A stretch of 32,000 bases of DNA from Candidatus Babelota bacterium (GTDB lineage Bacteria > Babelota > Babeliae > Babelales > Vermiphilaceae). The stretch is from contig JBDHVY010000001.1 in NCBI GenBank assembly GCA_039809905.1, positions 90,001 through 122,000 of the forward strand, given 5' to 3'. Of this stretch, positions 21,649 to 31,960 are shown piece after piece. How positions within the stretch are numbered: the first letter of the stretch is position 1; each line of letters opens with the position of its first letter. The notes beneath the pieces were generated by a model. The model was not told the origin of the DNA and searched no databases. It was given only the letters and a program-made list of their open reading frames with translations. A program made the translations under genes and the position numbers.

Positions 21649-21691
21649 CTTAATGTGGGGTCCCCCATTCGGCATATAATAGAGAATGGGG
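21649..21691 (+). promoter_or_regulatory. GGGG/CCCC hairpin motif copy upstream of 21735..22001
   Basis: CTTAAT-g-TGGGG-T-CCCCCATTC-ggcatataataga-GAATGGGG. The loop contains TATAAT. It is nearly identical to the copy at 29372..29413. Confidence 0.5.
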
Positions 21692-26911: not shown

Positions 26912-27081
26912 TGGACAACTCCTTATAAAAGAGGATATTAAAATATCTTTTCATAAAGAGCTCTAACATGACAAATAAACAAAGTCAATGTAAAAAGCCT
27001 CTTTACGATAAGGTAAAAAGGCTTTCATTTTTATTCTTTGATTACAGATTACTAATGTTTATTGAGCATCATTCTGTCTCT

Positions 27082-27480
27082 TTAAGATTTTAATCGAAGA
27101 AATTGTTTATAACCAGCCAATTCTCTTTTTAAGATGTTATATGTTGGAACAATTGGATATAAAAGACCAACGGTACCCAATCCCATAAGGGTTCTTCCAG
27201 TTAATTTGCAAATAGCTCCAGTATTCTTACCAACAAAATTGTCCGCATTCTCTTTTGTCGTTATTATAATCATTTCTTTTGATTCTGATGACATTATTCC
27301 AAAATCTAATGCTGTTTTTGAAAGACGGTTCAAATAAAATCCTATACCAATATTGGCGGCAGAAGTAACTTGTTGTAAAACATTTGATTTCTTTGATTGT
27401 TGCTGTTGCTGAGCCTGAGATACTGAGTAAGCACATAACAATGCTGCTATCAATGAAAGTGTTGCTAATCGATTTACCAT
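27082..27480 (-). CDS. Small exported hypothetical protein (132 aa)
   Basis: AAGGAG 7 nt upstream of the ATG. Signal-like N-terminus LATLSLIAALLCAYSVSQA followed by a poly-Q run. Confidence 0.7.
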   Translation of the reverse strand: MVNRLATLSLIAALLCAYSVSQAQQQQQSKKSNVLQQVTSAANIGIGFYLNRLSKTALDFGIMSSESKEMIIITTKENADNFVGKNTGAICKLTGRTLMGLGTVGLLYPIVPTYNILKRELAGYKQFLRLKS

Positions 27481-27621
27481 AGCAAAGCTCCTTAATAATT
27501 AAAATATTAGCATATAGCTGTATTCTCAATAAAATTAACATTAAAAATTCAATTTGTCAATCTCTGGGCCTGCCCTTTATAACACAAAAAATACCATAAA
27601 AAACCCCAAAATAGCTCAATA

Positions 27622-27659
27622 AATATGCCTCCCTGTGCTTTACAGCAAAGAGAGGCATA
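27622..27659 (-). terminator. Candidate terminator hairpin after the ankyrin gene
   Basis: ATATGCCTC (27622-27630) pairs with GAGGCATAT (27651-27659). The trailing T-tract on the minus strand is only modest. Confidence 0.4.
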
Positions 27660-27682
27660 TTGCTCATTATCGATTTTCAACA

Positions 27683-28435
27683 TTACTTTTTTTCGCTACC
27701 GGATAACAATTCTATCAATTCACTTGTTCCTATTTCACGCGCATAATCAAGTGCAGTTTTTTTTGCTAGATCCTTGATGTTTCGATCAATTGCCTTACAG
27801 CCCAAAAGCAGTTTTATTAATTTTTTACATCTTCCTAGAACAGCATAATGCAAAGACGTTCTTCCTTGGTAATCACCATTATTTACCGATGTTTTTGGAT
27901 TTCCTATAAGCAATTCTATAATTTTGAAATAATTATCTTTGTATGAACTATTCATTGCAAAATAGCCCTTGATAGCAGTATGAAGCGACGTATTATATGC
28001 TTCATTAAGAATATTTGGATTAGCACCAGCATCTAACAACGCTTTAGTTGCCGGAACTTTTGCTTGCGCAACAGCAAAACTAAGAGCTGTGCATCCATTT
28101 TTGTTTTCTATATCTTTGTTGGTTCTTGTATCAGCGCATAATACTTTTAAAATATCGGCATTATTTGCTCTTGCAGCCCAATGAATTAATGCATGTTCTT
28201 TTTGAGTTCCTTGTTCATTGGGATTTAATTTTTTACGTAACAGTAATCGTTCAATGGTCTCTGTTCCATGGGGGAGATTGTATAATGATTCAATAGCGCA
28301 TTGATCTTCTTTTTTAACAGCCTCGACAAGTTTTTCACAATAATCACTATCAGACATCGGATTAATCCGTGATAGCTGCGCGCTGAAAACCGAGGTAAAA
28401 GATATAATAGATAGCAGCACTAATAGAAAATTCAT
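27683..28435 (-). CDS. Exported ankyrin-repeat protein
   Basis: I prefer ATG at 28435 (GAAGGA upstream), giving MNFLLVLLSIISFTSVFSA. ANK repeats: HALIHWAARANNADILKVL, NGCTALSFAVAQAKVPATKALLDAGANPN, NTSLHTAI, GRTSLHYAVLGRCKKLIKLLL and KTALDYA. Confidence 0.85.
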   Translation of the reverse strand: MNFLLVLLSIISFTSVFSAQLSRINPMSDSDYCEKLVEAVKKEDQCAIESLYNLPHGTETIERLLLRKKLNPNEQGTQKEHALIHWAARANNADILKVLCADTRTNKDIENKNGCTALSFAVAQAKVPATKALLDAGANPNILNEAYNTSLHTAIKGYFAMNSSYKDNYFKIIELLIGNPKTSVNNGDYQGRTSLHYAVLGRCKKLIKLLLGCKAIDRNIKDLAKKTALDYAREIGTSELIELLSGSEKK

Positions 28436-28607
28436 ATTTGTCCTTCTTTTATGGTAAACATGCTCAACAAAAAATAATTTCGGCATACAATACCATATTT
28501 TTTTGATCATTGCATAAAAAAATATAACCACTGGACTGATCAAGCCATTCCCTATACACTAAAAATACAAGGTTAAATTACATACTAGCATTAAAGGTAG
28601 ATTACCA

Positions 28608-29321
28608 ATGGCAGGTCATAATAAATGGTCTCAAATTAAACATAAAAAAGCTAAAGAAGACGGCAAAAAATCTAAGATTTATACAAAAATCATTAAAGAA
28701 ATCACCATGACCGCTCGCGAAAACGGCGGCAATCCTGATCTTAATCCTCGCTTGCGACTCTTGCTTGAAAAAGGAAGAGAAGCAAACATGCCTATAGAAA
28801 ACGCTATACGCGCAATCAAAAAAGGCACAGGCGAACTTCCCGGAACTCAATACGAATCTTATACGTACGAAGGTTACGCACCGTATGGTATTGCAGTAAT
28901 GGTTGATGCAATAACTGATAACAAAAATCGTACTATTGCAGAGTTTCGTCGATTATTTTCTGAAAATGGTGGTAATTTAGGAGAATCGGGAACCGTTGGT
29001 TGGATGTTTGAAAAACTCGGCGCTGTTACTGCTACCGGAACTATTACCGAAGATGAGCTTCTTGAACATTTAATTGAATATGATATTAAAGATGTTCAGA
29101 TCAACGATGATTCATGTATCATACATTGCGATATTCGTGCTCTTGAATCAGTAAAAAATGCTATTGAAAAAGCAGGATTAAAGATCGAAAATTCAGGGCT
29201 TGAATGGGTTGCAAAAACAACCACTGAATTATCAGAAACTCAAACTGATAAAGTTCTTGAATTTTTATCAAAAATACAAGATCATGACGACGTAGAAAAT
29301 GTCTACACCAACTTGGGCTAA
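28608..29321 (+). CDS. yebC: YebC/PmpR-family transcriptional regulator/translation factor
   Basis: MAGHNKWSQIKHKKAKEDGKKSKIYTKIIKEI...GGNPDLNPRLR...A...NMP is the invariant YebC N-terminus. 237 aa is the typical length. Confidence 0.93.
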   Translation: MAGHNKWSQIKHKKAKEDGKKSKIYTKIIKEITMTARENGGNPDLNPRLRLLLEKGREANMPIENAIRAIKKGTGELPGTQYESYTYEGYAPYGIAVMVDAITDNKNRTIAEFRRLFSENGGNLGESGTVGWMFEKLGAVTATGTITEDELLEHLIEYDIKDVQINDDSCIIHCDIRALESVKNAIEKAGLKIENSGLEWVAKTTTELSETQTDKVLEFLSKIQDHDDVENVYTNLG

Positions 29322-29371
29322 ATAATAGCAAGAATCACTATAATAAACTGAAAAACAGTATCTAAAACTTT

Positions 29372-29413
29372 CTAAATATGGGGTCCCCAATCGACATATA
29401 ATAGAGATTGGGG
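29372..29413 (+). promoter_or_regulatory. GGGG/CCCC hairpin motif copy upstream of yicC
   Basis: CTAAAT-a-TGGGG-T-CCCCAATC-gacatataataga-GATTGGGG. It ends 18 nt before the yicC ATG. Confidence 0.5.
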
Positions 29414-29431
29414 CTAAAGGAAACAATCCTG

Positions 29432-30337
29432 ATGAAAAAATATACCATCACCAGCATGACAGGCTTTGCATCAAAAATATTTGTTTTAACAGCTCCATCA
29501 GGAGAACGTTCCACCGTTTCCATGAATTTAAAATCTCTCAATTCACGTTTTTTTGAAAGCACGGTAAAATTACCTATTGCATTATCACACTTGGAAACTA
29601 CTTTTACCAAACAATTCAAAGAAAGATTACGTCGAGGCCACGTTTATTTTACCGCGTATTTAAGCAACCCAAATATTTTTGAAGGTGCCATTACTCCCGC
29701 AATGACGATTATTGATAGCTACATTCAATCAATGAATCAGATCAAAACAAAATATCATTTTTCTGAAGATATTAAACTGGATAATGTTTTACGCTTGCCT
29801 AATATTTTCTCCAAAGAAGAACAGCAATTGGATGAAGAAACAACAAAGCTTATACAAGATGCTGCCGCTGATTTAATTGAAAAACTACTGCAAGAGAGAA
29901 CAACAGAAGGAAATTCATTAGCAATTGATCTTGATAACCGTATTGCTATTATACAAAAAGAAATGGCTCTTATTACCGAAAGAGCTCATGTATTTGTTGA
30001 AGAATCAAAAAAGAAAGTACATGCAACATTACAAGAAATTGGCGCTGATGAAAATTTGCTCGCTGACGCCCAAAAAAATGGCTTGTATGCTCTACTCAAT
30101 AAAATTGATATTCATGAAGAAATTACTCGTCTGAATAGTCATTTAGAAAATTTCGTAACTATTTTGCAGCAATCTGATATGGAAAAAGGCAAACGCCTTG
30201 ACTTTACCTTACAAGAATTAGGACGTGAAATTAATACGATTACGGCAAAATGCTCTGATTCAACAATTAGCACCCATGCGATTAACGTCAAAGTTGAAAT
30301 TGAGAAAATGCGTGAGCAGATTCAGAATATTGTATAA
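29432..30337 (+). CDS. yicC: YicC/YloC-family stress-induced protein (endoribonuclease family)
   Basis: The track start at 29408 is TTG. ATG at 29432 has AAAGGAAA upstream. SMTGFA, LKSLNSRFFE, DIHEEITRLNSHL and RLDFTLQELGREINTITAKC are YicC N- and C-terminal signatures. Confidence 0.9.
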   Translation: MKKYTITSMTGFASKIFVLTAPSGERSTVSMNLKSLNSRFFESTVKLPIALSHLETTFTKQFKERLRRGHVYFTAYLSNPNIFEGAITPAMTIIDSYIQSMNQIKTKYHFSEDIKLDNVLRLPNIFSKEEQQLDEETTKLIQDAAADLIEKLLQERTTEGNSLAIDLDNRIAIIQKEMALITERAHVFVEESKKKVHATLQEIGADENLLADAQKNGLYALLNKIDIHEEITRLNSHLENFVTILQQSDMEKGKRLDFTLQELGREINTITAKCSDSTISTHAINVKVEIEKMREQIQNIV

Positions 30338-30354
30338 GTTGCTCACGCATTTTT
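30305..30354 (+). terminator. Terminator whose 5' arm is the last codons of yicC
   Basis: AAAATGCGTGAGCA (30305-30318, coding) pairs with TGCTCACGCATTTT (30340-30354) and is followed by a T-run. The loop is 21 nt. Confidence 0.55.
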
Positions 30355-30404
30355 AGATCAAATATTAATTGCTAACCTTGATTGTTCAATCACTAAAAAT
30401 ATTT

Positions 30405-31217
30405 TTAGTAAGAAAACCACCTTTGCCAAAAAGATTTTTTAGCTTCTTCTTGTCTGCGCGTTGCAGACTTTAAGTGCAGCTTTGGATATAATGCAGCATC
30501 ATTTAATTCTTCTTTTATATTTTTCATACTTTCTTGAAAAAAACTGGCGGGCAATTTGCTTTGCTTAATAAAAGCAACTTTATCTAAAAGAGTTTCTATT
30601 TTTTCTCTATAACTTTCAGCATCAAATGTAAGAATATCTCGTGGTTCATAGTCTTTAGGCTCCGAGAACAACCGTATCTCGTCTCCTAATTTCCTCAGCT
30701 CTGACATGATAGAGTTTACCTTATCTGCTAATAATCCAAACAAGCATTTGTTTAAATCGATTTTAATAAGTAATTTATCGGCATAAATATAAACTTTTAC
30801 TAGCTCTTCTAACGATGAATCAGTTATTTTTATATTGTTTTTGCATTTATTTATTATTTCAACAATTTTCTTAAATGTTTCAATATCCGACAGACCAATA
30901 AGGGGATCCGCTGTATCCGCTAAAGCACTTCTTATAGCTTCACTCCAGTCAACATCGTCCTGAGAAAAAATTTGACCGTGCTCGATGTTATTTATTTCAT
31001 AAATATAAACTTGATTTTCCTTTAATTCTGATCGAATTTTATTTTTTTTATAGTTAAGTATCGCACTTGATCTCTTGCTTAAATCCATACGAGACATGGG
31101 TCTTTGCAGTCTAGGAACCGTACTCATTCCATAAATATCGCAGGTAATACACATCATCAAGAATAATACCTTTATAGATATGACAACCTTATTTTTATTG
31201 TAATTATTCATTTTCAT
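30405..31217 (-). CDS. Exported hypothetical protein (270 aa) carried on the segment between the two yicC 3' copies
   Basis: ATG start. Hydrophobic N-terminus VVISIKVLFLMMCITCDIYG. Ends with a basic/aromatic tail KKSFWQRWFSY. No recognisable family. Confidence 0.75.
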   Translation of the reverse strand: MKMNNYNKNKVVISIKVLFLMMCITCDIYGMSTVPRLQRPMSRMDLSKRSSAILNYKKNKIRSELKENQVYIYEINNIEHGQIFSQDDVDWSEAIRSALADTADPLIGLSDIETFKKIVEIINKCKNNIKITDSSLEELVKVYIYADKLLIKIDLNKCLFGLLADKVNSIMSELRKLGDEIRLFSEPKDYEPRDILTFDAESYREKIETLLDKVAFIKQSKLPASFFQESMKNIKEELNDAALYPKLHLKSATRRQEEAKKSFWQRWFSY

Positions 31218-31316
31218 ACAAAATCCCTACTTTTTATCGACATTATTAAATTTTATTAATATCACTAATACTATATCATTGTTTATTTTATATTTGCAAC
31301 AATTAACCTAAGGGCA

Positions 31317-31699
31317 CTATTGATATAATATCAATAAAGAAATGGTTATCATTGCTGAAAGAGCTCATGTATTTGTTGAAGAATCAAAAAAGAAAGTACA
31401 TGCAACATTACAAGAAATTGGCGCGGATGAAAATTTGCTCGCGCATTTACTCCATGCTCAATAAAATTGATATTCATGAAGAAATTACTCGTCTGAATAG
31501 TCATTTAGAAAATTTCGTAACTATTTTGCAGTAATCTGATATGGAAAAAGGCAAACGCCTTGACTTTACCTTGCAAGAATTAGGGCGTGAAATTAATACT
31601 ATTACGGCAAAATGCTCGGATTCAACCATTAGTTCTCATGCAATCAATGTTAAAGTTGAGATCGAGAAAATGCGCGAGCAAATTCAAAACATTGTATAA
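31317..31699 (+). pseudogene. yicC: Displaced, inactivated copy of the yicC 3' third
   Basis: Nucleotide-level match to 29950..30337. It lacks the 5' two thirds of the gene, carries a net 17-nt deletion/rearrangement at 31441-31456 (frameshift), and has CAA to TAA at 31532-31534. It ends with the same ATTGTATAA. Confidence 0.85.
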
Positions 31700-31711
31700 T
31701 TCTATTCGTTT

Positions 31712-31835
31712 CTGTAAATGGGGACCTCTTCCTTCGACCCGTCCTTCGCCAAGGCTTCGAAGGGCAAGCAAGCGTTTACTACTGAGCATGGTCGAAGTAT
31801 CAGGACGAGTGGGAATTTACGGAGTTGGGGTAAAG
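31712..31835 (+). repeat. GC-rich structured island flanked by GGGG-motif ends
   Basis: The flanks CTGTAAATGGGGACC and GTTGGGGTAAAG resemble the ends of the hairpin motif. The core is roughly 55 percent GC by hand count in a visibly AT-rich region. Nested stems: CTTCGACC (31732-39)/GGTCGAAG (31790-97) and CCTTCG (31743-48)/CGAAGG (31758-63). Confidence 0.45.
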
Positions 31836-31960
31836 CACATTCAAAATATTATCTAAAATTCCTTTTTCTTTCAGCATAATCAGACTATTCAACCTCATTG
31901 ACCTATGAACAAAAAAACCTTATTCTTTTTGTATACCCTGTTACATAATTAAAGGATATC

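What the first reader, a model, noticed from the sequence alone, without database searches (positions are those of the whole stretch)
29950..31699. One-gene insertion flanked by intact and displaced yicC 3' ends; synonymous-only divergence implies a foreign allele
29950-30337 (the end of intact yicC) recurs at 31317-31699. Between the copies lies about 1 kb carrying a single exported ORFan (30405..31217, opposite strand). The right copy is dead: it lacks the 5' two thirds, has a net 17-nt deletion at 31441-31456, and has a CAA to TAA nonsense change at 31532. Identity is mosaic. About 190 nt (31356-31531) are near-identical apart from that indel, with 1 substitution. The last 168 nt carry 19 substitutions, of which 16 are synonymous third-position changes. 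For example, AINVKVEIEKMREQIQNIV is encoded identically in protein but with 10 silent differences. Decay of a local duplicate would not be silent-biased. The two 3' ends therefore diverged as functional genes in different lineages. One then arrived by recombination together with, or next to, the ORFan, and a later gene-conversion patch homogenised the middle. This resembles how integrative elements carry a replacement 3' end for their target gene, yet no integrase is present.
Basis: seen in the sequence. Interest (0 to 1): 0.7.

Follow-up and report, generated by a model that had tools for sequence, protein, structure and literature searches.

The report
Recombination scar: imported gene beside yicC
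In an uncultured Dependentiae (TM6) bacterium, about 1.36 kb of DNA from a related lineage, carrying one secreted protein of unknown function plus a replacement end for the housekeeping gene yicC, recombined into yicC and left a dead chimeric copy of the gene's end behind; it is a clear but fairly ordinary scar of gene transfer by homologous recombination.

Summary
The last ~380 nt of intact yicC (29941/29957-30337) recur at 31318/31336-31699. Between them lies one minus-strand ORF (30405..31217). The right copy has a 17-nt deletion and a CAA>TAA stop. The 3' 126 nt differ at 18 sites, 17 of them third positions (pS 0.65, pN 0.01).

A ~91%-identical relative (L082) has the empty site: its yicC stop is followed directly by the homolog of window 31700 onward. 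Comparing both copies with L082 gives a blocky pattern (runs test p<1e-5):
- The intact gene is L082-like up to 30094 and foreign from 30095 to the stop.
- The fragment is foreign at its 5' end (31336-31356, 31443-31572) and L082-like at 31573-31659.
- Two tracts are identical between the copies, which I read as gene conversion.

This reciprocal chimerism is the topology of a single homologous crossover by circular or circularly permuted foreign DNA (Campbell-type insertion-duplication). It does not fit local duplication, and no integrase is present.

The cargo is not a strict orphan. Its one detectable homolog (28% identity, same length) sits in the same slot, convergent with yicC, in another Babeliales lineage. 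Its function is unknown.

Interest is modest.

The parts
29432..30337 (+). Intact yicC (301 aa). It is a chimera: L082-like (native) up to about 30094 and foreign-type from 30095 to the stop.
   Evidence: Pfam YicC-like_N and YicC-like_C. Divergence from L082 rises from about 2-3 to 9-12 differences per 60 nt at about 30100. pS against L082 is 0.00-0.12 over 29957-30061 (2 of 2.7 synonymous sites differ in the 4 codons 30083-30094) and 0.51-0.57 in 30095-30295.
29941..30337 (+). Left repeat copy (A). Secure homology runs from 29957; 29941-29956 is arguable.
30300..30358 (+). Terminator-like hairpin straddling the yicC stop. The A-specific coding end (30305-30318) pairs 14/14 with the insert's first bases (30340-30353) and is followed by TTTTT.
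   Evidence: Inverted repeat I12. Fold -23.1 kcal/mol, z -5.1, 0 of 200 shuffles as good. The stem would be mismatched with the B or L082 coding variants. This links the foreign 3' end to the foreign flank.
30338..31317 (.). Unique inserted DNA, absent from L082: foreign flank, cargo ORF and its upstream region.
   Evidence: No counterpart in L082, L083 or L084. No inverted repeats at its ends.
30405..31217 (-). Cargo ORF, 270 aa. N-terminal hydrophobic signal-like segment, mostly helical, C-terminal RWFS motif. Function unknown.
   Evidence: ORF. Only itself found among 5.8e9 proteins. One homolog, P0122 (270 aa), by full HMMER search (E 1e-7; pairwise E 1e-17, 28% identity end to end). No Pfam, NCBIfam, PADLOC or PDB match. 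AF2 pLDDT 42.8, unusable.
31318..31336 (.). Joint between the cargo's upstream region and the foreign-type yicC fragment. Contains an 8+8 palindrome, ATTGATAT-A-ATATCAAT (31320-31336).
   Evidence: Alignment. Self reverse-complement hit. No yicC similarity further 5'.
31336..31356 (+). Fragment block S1: foreign-type (MVIIAE against MALITE in A and L082).
   Evidence: A equals L082 at all 5 variable sites and B differs. pS of B against L082 is 0.48; A against L082 is 0.
31357..31442 (+). Fragment block S2: nearly identical to A (1 difference, 31425) and L082-like. A converted tract that ends exactly at the deletion.
31442..31443 (+). Site of the 17-nt frameshifting deletion.
31443..31456 (+). 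Fragment block S3: foreign-type. It reads (G)IYSML in the old frame, the family consensus. A and L082 share the derived YALL.
31457..31572 (+). Fragment block S4: identical to A except the CAA>TAA stop at 31532. In both copies it is foreign-type (QSDME against QPDAE in L082, L083 and L084).
   Evidence: 18 sites where A=B and L082 differs. pS against L082 is 0.57-0.58.
31573..31659 (+). Fragment block S5: native. It matches L082 at 8 of the 9 sites where exactly one of A or B agrees with L082, including the shared derived TCT (Ser) and AAT.
   Evidence: pS of B against L082 is 0.20 (background level); A against L082 is 0.51.
31660..31699 (+). Fragment block S6: ancestry unresolved.
   Evidence: A-B 6 differences, A-L082 5, B-L082 10.
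31700..31726 (+). Native downstream flank, homologous to L082 3361-3384. Start of a GGGGxCC...TTGGGG hairpin.
31727..31824 (.). A separate 98-nt G+C-rich insertion in the hairpin loop, absent from L082. It is not part of the yicC event.
31825..32000 (+). Native flank and start (31962) of the next gene. In relatives this gene is a MutS2-like protein (MutS_III and MutS_V domains).
   Evidence: 89% identical to L082 3404-3564. Gene contexts.

Best explanation
The resident genome carried yebC-yicC-(hairpin)-mutS2-like, as its close relative L082 still does. DNA from a more distant Babeliales lineage was taken up. In that lineage a 270-aa secreted protein gene lies convergent with and just downstream of yicC.

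The incoming piece was about 1.36 kb. It ran from about codon 170 of the donor's yicC, through the stop, its terminator arm and the cargo gene, to about 100 nt upstream of the cargo. It behaved as a circle or a circularly permuted molecule.

It recombined once with the resident yicC by homologous (RecA-type, 'ends-in' or Campbell) recombination. That single reciprocal exchange gave two products:
- An intact yicC made of resident 5' sequence and donor 3' sequence (switch at about 30095), followed by the donor flank and cargo.
- A 5'-truncated yicC made of donor 5' sequence and resident 3' sequence (switch at about 31572), still attached to the resident downstream flank.

The 116 nt around the exchange (30095-30210 and 31457-31572) are donor-type in both copies. 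Gap or heteroduplex repair at the crossover would produce this, or a later conversion.

The useless fragment then lost 17 nt. It was converted once more by the intact gene over 31357-31442, a tract that stops at the deletion. It later acquired a stop codon at 31532 and one more substitution at 31425.

Shown:
- The repeat and the empty site.
- The silent-biased, near-saturated divergence.
- The blocky reciprocal ancestry.
- The cargo's single homolog in the same slot.

Inferred:
- A circular intermediate.
- RecA dependence.
- The order of events.
- Export of the cargo protein.
For: - Empty site in L082.
- A against L082: pS 0.00-0.12 over 29957-30061, then 0.57 and 0.51 in 30095-30295. B against L082 runs the other way: 0.48 in S1, a divergent S3, 0.20 in S5. 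Background pS between window and L082 is 0.12-0.32.
- The site patterns come in runs: 13 runs among 50 sites, and 0 of 100,000 permutations gave as few.
- S3 of the fragment carries the family-consensus YSML codons, while A and L082 share the derived YALL. It cannot be a decayed copy of the resident gene.
- A's coding end forms a perfect 14-bp terminator stem with the first bases of the insert. The foreign 3' end and the insert therefore arrived as one unit.
- The cargo's only homolog, P0122, lies 171 nt downstream of and convergent with the YicC P0015, next to yebC, on JGI 3300045391. yicC-cargo adjacency is thus a natural donor arrangement.
- The yicC|mutS2 slot is variable among relatives: empty in L082 and L083, other ORFs in L084, L085 and L087.
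- RuvB and MutS are encoded in the window, so recombination functions exist.
- An independent short-read contig spans the joints.
Against: - The last 40 nt (S6) do not fit. The fragment should be resident-type there, yet it differs from L082 at 10 sites while A differs at 5. A possible reason, offered as inference only: these codons are one arm of a lineage-specific terminator hairpin and co-vary with the flank.
- No donor genome is available, so the joint at 31317-31336 cannot be shown to be a circularisation point.
- The polarity rests on one close relative (L082) and on two others whose YicC is 83-86% identical in protein.
- Only 4.8 kb of L082 is known.
- Nothing is known about DNA uptake in these bacteria.
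- The deletion and the stop in the fragment rest on this assembly alone.
Confidence: 0.6

Rival explanations
1. Remnant of an integrase-driven island or prophage that targets the 3' end of yicC and carries a replacement end, as e14 and phage 21 do in E. coli icd. The integrase and most of the cargo were later deleted.
For: The outline is the same: intact target gene with a foreign, silently divergent 3' end, then the insert, then the displaced 3' end, plus an empty site in a relative.
Against: No recombinase in the 1-kb insert or among the 19 window ORFs scanned against Pfam. Foreign-type yicC sequence extends 150-230 nt upstream of the exchange point in the fragment (S1, S3, S4). A site-specific attP has no reason to carry that. 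There is no short identical core bounded by divergence on both sides. The insert is only one gene with its own terminator arm. The cargo's homolog sits beside yicC with no room for a fragment or an integrase (269-nt spacer).
Confidence: 0.1
2. Multi-step origin. The partial duplication (yicC-cargo-yicC') already existed in the donor lineage, or arose by illegitimate or bridged recombination during transformation (merodiploid formation). It then entered this genome by two ordinary crossovers, one in each yicC copy.
For: It gives the same final mosaic: N>F switch in copy A, F>N switch in copy B. Transformation is known to generate merodiploids in pneumococcus (PMC3784515, abstract only).
Against: It needs more events. 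No other locus examined shows a yicC duplicate. The spacing in the P0122 contig leaves no room for one.
Confidence: 0.13
3. Reverse polarity. The duplicated arrangement is ancestral to the window and L082 lineages, and L082 lost the insert by recombination between the repeats.
For: A pop-out with a crossover between S3 and S5 would give exactly L082's pattern: A-like 5', B-like S5, B-type flank.
Against: L083 is also empty. All 4 differences between B and L082 in S5 are silent third-position changes. That suggests S5 spent most of the time since the split inside a working gene. The copies differ by only 2 substitutions in 200 nt of converted tract. This rival changes the timing, not the mechanism.
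Confidence: 0.08
4. Local tandem duplication or an old pair of yicC paralogs, followed by decay of one copy and chance insertion of an ORF.
For: The direct repeats flank the ORF.
Against: 17 of 18 differences in the 3' 127 nt are at third positions, with pN 0.01 against pS 0.65. The fragment carries consensus-type codons that the resident gene lacks. No relative has two copies. An empty site exists.
Confidence: 0.03
5. Assembly artefact: two co-occurring strains' yicC alleles were stitched in tandem.
For: The source is a metagenome-assembled genome, and a related long-read contig (L082) shows a frameshift that looks like a read error.
Against: An independent short-read contig reproduces 30181-31386 exactly and breaks where a two-copy repeat predicts. 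There is no shared sequence at 31317/31318 that could mislead an assembler. A second strain's working allele would not carry a 17-nt deletion and a stop.
Confidence: 0.03

Closest known systems
Campbell-type (insertion-duplication, 'ends-in') integration of circular DNA by a single homologous crossover. This is a textbook mechanism, used routinely for suicide-plasmid integration (own knowledge).
   Same: The insert is flanked by direct repeats of the homology segment. The left copy is resident 5' plus incoming 3'; the right copy is incoming 5' plus resident 3'. There is a conversion tract at the exchange. No element-encoded recombinase is needed.
   Different: Here it is a natural event between diverged alleles (silent sites near saturation) in an uncultured intracellular bacterium. 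The circular intermediate is inferred, not seen. One segment (S6) does not fit the simple pattern.
e14 and phage 21 integration into the 3' end of E. coli icd, leaving the displaced icd pseudogene fragment (own knowledge; Hill et al. 1989, Campbell et al. 1992, Wang et al. 1997; I could not retrieve these papers here).
   Same: A housekeeping gene stays intact because the incoming DNA supplies an alternative 3' end that differs mostly at silent sites. The old 3' end is left as a dead fragment on the far side of the insert.
   Different: Those elements encode a tyrosine integrase and recombine at a short core. Here there is no integrase, about 380 nt of homology, and foreign-type sequence on both sides of the exchange.
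3'-end displacement arrays of polymorphic toxin genes (Rhs, CdiA; meningococcal tpsA/tpsC cassettes, PMC3848433).
   Same: A new 3' end plus a downstream gene enters by recombination in the conserved part of the gene. The old 3' end is pushed downstream as an orphan.
   Different: In those systems the exchanged ends encode different toxins and the cargo is the matching immunity gene. Here the two ends encode the same protein apart from one Thr/Ser, so the replacement end is a by-product, not the point.
Homology-facilitated illegitimate recombination (one homologous anchor, one illegitimate joint; PMC3240628 abstract).
   Same: Foreign DNA with homology on one side only enters next to a conserved gene.
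   Different: HFIR would leave a fragment that is resident-type throughout. The fragment here is foreign-type in S1, S3 and S4.

Membership tests
YicC/YloC endoribonuclease family (the target gene) | YicC-like N-terminal and C-terminal domains in one roughly 290-300-aa protein | tested here: met
   PF03755 1.2e-29 and PF08340 8.4e-32 in 29432..30337. More than 1000 homologs at E<=1e-40. Nuclease activity not testable.
Integrase-mediated integrative element with replacement 3' end (e14/phage 21-icd type) | Element-encoded tyrosine or serine recombinase | tested here: not met
   The insert has one ORF with no family hit. No recombinase among the 19 window ORFs scanned against Pfam.
Integrase-mediated integrative element with replacement 3' end (e14/phage 21-icd type) | Direct repeats of the target's 3' end at both borders, and an empty site in relatives | tested here: met
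Integrase-mediated integrative element with replacement 3' end (e14/phage 21-icd type) | Homology limited to a short core plus the 3' remainder of the target | tested here: not met
   Foreign-type yicC sequence extends 150-230 nt 5' of the exchange in the fragment.
Campbell-type single-crossover insertion-duplication | Reciprocal chimerism of the two repeat copies | tested here: met
   A: native S1-S3, foreign S4-S5. B: foreign S1, S3 and S4, native S5. Runs test p<1e-5. S6 is inconclusive.
Campbell-type single-crossover insertion-duplication | Circular (or permuted) incoming molecule whose ends meet at a novel joint inside the insert | not testable with these tools
   The joint at 31317-31336 links cargo-upstream DNA to foreign-type yicC codon ~170. 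No donor sequence exists in the collections searched.
Transposon, IS or MITE | Terminal inverted repeats and a short target-site duplication; a transposase for autonomous elements | tested here: not met
   No inverted repeat pairs the borders 30338 and 31317. The flanking repeat is 380 nt of gene sequence. No transposase.
Polymorphic-toxin 3'-end displacement (Rhs/CdiA/TpsA) | Exchanged 3' ends encode different toxin domains, followed by an immunity gene | tested here: not met
   The two ends encode the same peptide except Thr/Ser. YicC is an RNase family, not a toxin-delivery protein.

The most novel reading that the evidence does not exclude
The structure is not a one-off scar. It would be the integrated form of an integrase-free, one-gene cassette that shuttles secreted effector-like ORFs between Babeliales lineages. 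The cassette carries a piece of a conserved housekeeping gene as its 'attachment site', enters by host homologous recombination as a small circle, and can leave again by recombination between the 380-nt direct repeats. A crossover 3' of 31532 would restore an intact yicC and release a 1.36-kb circle.

Against this:
- No second example was found in the window or in the related loci checked (L083, L084, L085, L087).
- The cargo family has only two known members.
Probability: 0.08. Interest if true: 0.6.

Novelty: new member of a known kind. Interest (0 to 1): 0.33.

Why it matters
Dependentiae are uncultured, obligate intracellular bacteria of protists. Their genomes are full of lineage-specific secreted proteins of unknown origin.

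This locus gives a dated, base-by-base record of how one such gene entered a genome. It came from a relative that is near saturation at silent sites. It entered by homologous recombination anchored in a conserved neighbour, without any mobile-element machinery. Gene conversion then followed between the resulting repeats.

It shows three things:
- These bacteria exchange DNA across species-level distances.
- The yicC|mutS2 spacer is a variable slot.
- A dead gene fragment can preserve the resident allele as a fossil.

It is a clean teaching case rather than a new principle.

Tried and rejected
- Function of the cargo. Pfam, NCBIfam, PADLOC and PDB-sequence searches gave nothing above noise. The single-sequence AlphaFold2 model had pLDDT 42.8, so I ran no fold search.
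- More members of the cargo family. A word-indexed search with the single protein and with the two-member profile, a full HMMER scan of 1.84e9 representatives, and two metagenome-contig scans found only P0122. The DNA of the P0122 contig could not be fetched.
- Donor allele. None of 121 YicC relatives combines the foreign markers (VIIAER, IYSML, SDMEKG). P0023 (MVIITERAH, GIYAML) and P0015/P0011 (PDMEKG) are only partly similar.
- Homology between the cargo and the ORFs that fill the same slot in L084, L085 and L087: none.
- RNA families in 29300-32000: none. The G+C-rich insert does not fold better than shuffles (z -0.15).
- Extension of the fragment's homology 5' of 31318: not significant.
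- Independent confirmation of the deletion and stop through small-ORF look-ups: nothing on record. The exact YicC protein could not be looked up either.
- Homology-facilitated illegitimate recombination and the 'whole fragment foreign' model. Both were rejected because neither allows the reciprocal swap seen between S1/S3 and S5.
- Literature on e14/icd was not retrievable in the held library.
Full report
**Where we are.** The window has 32-37% G+C. It encodes WD40 and ankyrin-repeat proteins, MutS, UvrA, RuvB, RodA/FtsW, YebC and YicC. The closest public genomes are metagenome-assembled Dependentiae (TM6) / Babeliales. The exact YicC and cargo proteins occur in NCBI on a 1,228,744-bp contig. 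This is presumably the source genome.

**The observation.**
- yicC (29432..30337, 301 aa, both YicC Pfam domains) is followed by a minus-strand 270-aa ORF (30405..31217), then by a second copy of the yicC 3' end.
- Alignment pairs 29957-30063 with 31336-31442 and 30093-30337 with 31455-31699. An arguable gapped stretch (29941-29956 / 31318-31335) precedes them. Nothing significant lies further 5'.
- The right copy (B) lacks codons 1 to about 170. It has a clean 17-nt deletion after 31442 and CAA>TAA at 31532.
- A Logan short-read contig (L001) equals window 30181-31386 at 100%. It stops exactly 30 nt beyond the last copy-specific bases on each side, as a k=31 graph would at a two-copy repeat. 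The arrangement is therefore not peculiar to one assembly.

**Silent bias and mosaic.** I split the repeat into six blocks.

| Block | Copy A coordinates | Differences between A and B |
|---|---|---|
| S1 | 29957-29977 | 5 (2 silent, 3 conservative replacements) |
| S2 | 29978-30063 | 1 |
| S3 | 30083-30094 | 7 |
| S4 | 30095-30210 | only the stop codon |
| S5+S6 | 30211-30337 | 18 (17 third positions; Sd 17, Nd 1; pS 0.65, pN 0.01) |

- Third-position excess: p=1e-7.
- Silent excess against codon expectation: p=3e-11.
- Silent differences in S2+S4 against the other blocks: Fisher p=2e-9.

Neutral decay of a local duplicate is excluded. The divergent blocks separated while both were parts of working genes, and silent sites are near saturation.

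**The empty site.** Among YicC relatives, a 4.8-kb ENA contig (L082) is about 91% identical in DNA over window 27678-30337. It continues from the yicC stop straight into the homolog of window 31700-31726 and 31825-31985. The next gene there starts MKFFS..., as at window 31962. L083 (yicC DNA 82% identical) is also empty. Relative to these, the window therefore carries an insertion of about 1.36 kb.

**Whose allele is where.** The three-way site patterns for A, B and L082 come in blocks.

| Block | Site pattern | Note |
|---|---|---|
| S1 | A=L082 at 5 of 5 variable sites | B differs |
| S2 | A=B | L082 differs at 3 sites, a background level |
| S3 | A=L082 at 5 of 7 variable sites, all three differ at 2 | B differs and carries the family-consensus Y-S-M-L codons; A and L082 share the derived Y-A-L-L |
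| S4 | A=B at 18 sites against L082 | includes QSDME against QPDAE |
| S5 | B=L082 at 8 of the 9 sites where exactly one copy agrees with L082 | includes shared derived TCT (Ser) and AAT |
| S6 | mixed | see below |

- A runs test gives 13 runs among 50 sites. None of 100,000 permutations gave as few.
- Pairwise pS, A against L082: 0.00 (S1), 0.12 (S2), 0.57 (S4), 0.51 (S5).
- Pairwise pS, B against L082: 0.48 (S1), 0.58 (S4), 0.20 (S5).
- Background pS between the window and L082 is 0.12 (yicC 5' part) to 0.32 (yebC).
- Values of 0.5-0.7 are what all three show against L083, L084 and L002.
- A sliding count shows A-L082 divergence jumping at about 30100.

So A is resident up to 30094 and foreign from 30095. 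B is foreign in S1, S3 and S4, and resident in S5 and in its flank.

**The foreign end and the insert are one unit.** A's last codons (30305-30318) pair 14/14 with 30340-30353, just after the stop, followed by TTTTT (I12). The fold is -23.1 kcal/mol, z -5.1. The stem uses A-specific silent variants; B's or L082's would mismatch. L082 has its own version of a stop-straddling stem with its own flank.

**Mechanism.** A reciprocal swap cannot be produced by gene conversion, which only copies. The swap here is A = N|F and B = F|N.
- It also cannot come from homology-facilitated illegitimate recombination. That would leave B wholly resident.
- Nor can it come from insertion of a wholly foreign block after an untouched resident gene. 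That would leave A resident in S5 and B foreign in S5.
- It is the signature of one reciprocal homologous crossover between the resident yicC and a molecule in which the cargo's upstream region is joined to foreign yicC codon ~170. That means a circle or a circular permutation of a 1.36-kb donor segment.
- S4 is foreign in both copies. It is the expected gap or heteroduplex repair tract at the exchange, or a later A>B conversion.
- S2 is resident-type in both copies and ends exactly at the 17-nt deletion. It is a later A>B conversion blocked by the heterology.
- The stop at 31532 and the change at 31425 lie inside converted tracts, so they came last.
- RuvB and MutS are encoded nearby.
- No integrase, transposase or terminal inverted repeats are present.

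**The cargo.**
- The word-indexed search of 5.8e9 proteins found only the protein itself.
- A full HMMER scan of 1.84e9 representatives found one homolog, P0122: 270 aa, E 1e-7, pairwise E 1e-17, 28% identity end to end, with the same N-terminal hydrophobic segment and C-terminal RWFS.
- P0122 lies on a 2973-bp JGI contig arranged as yebC, YicC (P0015, 79% identical to A), 171 nt, P0122 on the opposite strand, 269 nt, next gene. This is the donor-type arrangement the model requires. The 269-nt spacer leaves no room for a yicC fragment.
- A profile of the two proteins found no more members.
- No family, defence-system or solved-structure match was found. The AF2 model is unusable.
- The protein is probably exported (inference from the N-terminus) and mainly helical. 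Its function is unknown.

**A variable slot.** Between yicC and the MutS2-like gene, relatives carry different content:
- Nothing (L082, L083).
- A 296-338-aa minus-strand ORF of another family (L084, L087).
- That ORF plus a 265-aa ORF with an HEVGH motif (L085).

In L002 the gene immediately downstream of yicC is an ankyrin protein. In L003 large minus-strand ORFs follow yicC. None of the relatives' loci checked for repeats (L083, L084, L085, L087) has a yicC duplicate. The event here is singular.

**What does not fit.**
- In S6 (last 40 nt) B should be resident, but it differs from L082 at 10 sites, against 5 for A and 6 between A and B. S6 has only about 6 silent sites. Every pairwise comparison there is saturated. 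It is one arm of a lineage-specific hairpin, so co-variation with the flank may have erased the signal. This is an inference, and I leave S6 unresolved.
- The 17-nt deletion also creates a 22/24 inverted repeat with B's own 3' end (I2). A simple deletion suffices because the bases after it still read GIYSML, but a templated event cannot be excluded.

**Rivals.**
- A decayed integrase-driven island is disfavoured. There is no recombinase, and foreign yicC sequence lies 5' of the exchange.
- A pre-existing duplication in the donor, followed by two crossovers, gives the same product with more steps.
- L082 could be a pop-out revertant rather than a never-occupied site. This changes timing only. 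It is weakly disfavoured because all 4 differences between B and L082 in S5 are silent.
- Local duplication and assembly error are contradicted.

**Comparison with known systems.** The product looks like e14 or phage 21 in icd: a replacement 3' end, a displaced pseudo-end and silent divergence. The features tested fit host-driven Campbell-type insertion-duplication instead. It shares topology, but not purpose, with Rhs, CdiA and TpsA 3'-end displacement (PMC3848433). It is a new example of a known kind of event, in a phylum where gene flow is poorly documented.

**Verdict.** The interest is moderate-low. It is a well-resolved recombination scar that documents inter-lineage transfer of an effector-like gene, not a new mechanism.

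Noticed in passing
window 31727-31824; L084 17833-17946, 3409-3572, 17944-18098: A 98-nt G+C-rich segment sits inside the loop of the GGGGxCC...TTGGGG hairpin downstream of the yicC fragment. It is absent from L082. A 36-nt part matches two tandem 57-mers in L084 at 89%. L084 also has other G+C-rich palindromic repeats. This looks like a small G+C-rich repeat or MITE-like family in these A+T-rich genomes. There is no Rfam match and no fold better than shuffles.
   Followed up: partly
window 29380-29417 and 21657-21667; L082 3378-3409; L083 and L003 just after yicC: A recurring intergenic hairpin motif, GGGGTCCCCAA...TTGGGG, follows genes in this clade (2 matches in the window against 0.11 expected). 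It is probably a terminator or a repeated palindromic element.
   Followed up: partly
window 26993-27677 (ORF 27082..27480, minus strand): A second strain-specific one-gene difference from L082. About 685 nt, carrying a 132-aa ORF with a hydrophobic N-terminus, replace about 70 nt of unrelated sequence in L082. It lies between the peptidase A4 gene and the ankyrin gene and has no flanking duplication.
   Followed up: partly
window 31432-31455 and 31661-31684: The 17-nt deletion in the yicC fragment creates a 24-nt inverted repeat, 92% complementary, with the fragment's own 3' end. It could be chance or a templated (quasi-palindrome) mutation.
   Followed up: no
window 30300-30358; L082 3325-3372: The yicC terminator hairpin uses the last codons of the gene as its ascending arm, and each lineage has its own matching descending arm after the stop. 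Silent sites in the last ~13 codons may therefore be under RNA-structure selection.
   Followed up: partly
L084 10953..11969, L085 8081..8965, L087 7003..7893; L085 7251..8048: The yicC|mutS2 slot in relatives holds a different fast-evolving ORF family (40-50% identity among the three, hydrophobic N-termini). L085 also has a 265-aa ORF with an HEVGH metalloprotease-like motif. The slot is a hot spot for lineage-specific genes.
   Followed up: partly
L082 around 3025-3035: L082's yicC is split into 205-aa and 116-aa ORFs by one extra base next to an A-run. This is probably a long-read homopolymer error rather than a real pseudogene.
   Followed up: no
window 2037-5908 and 10848-12665: Three WD40 beta-propeller genes. 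The two adjacent ones (2037..4025 and 4232..5908) share repeated 40-43-nt units and a 68-nt repeat in their upstream regions (4036-4103 / 5935-6002). They appear to be recent tandem paralogs.
   Followed up: no
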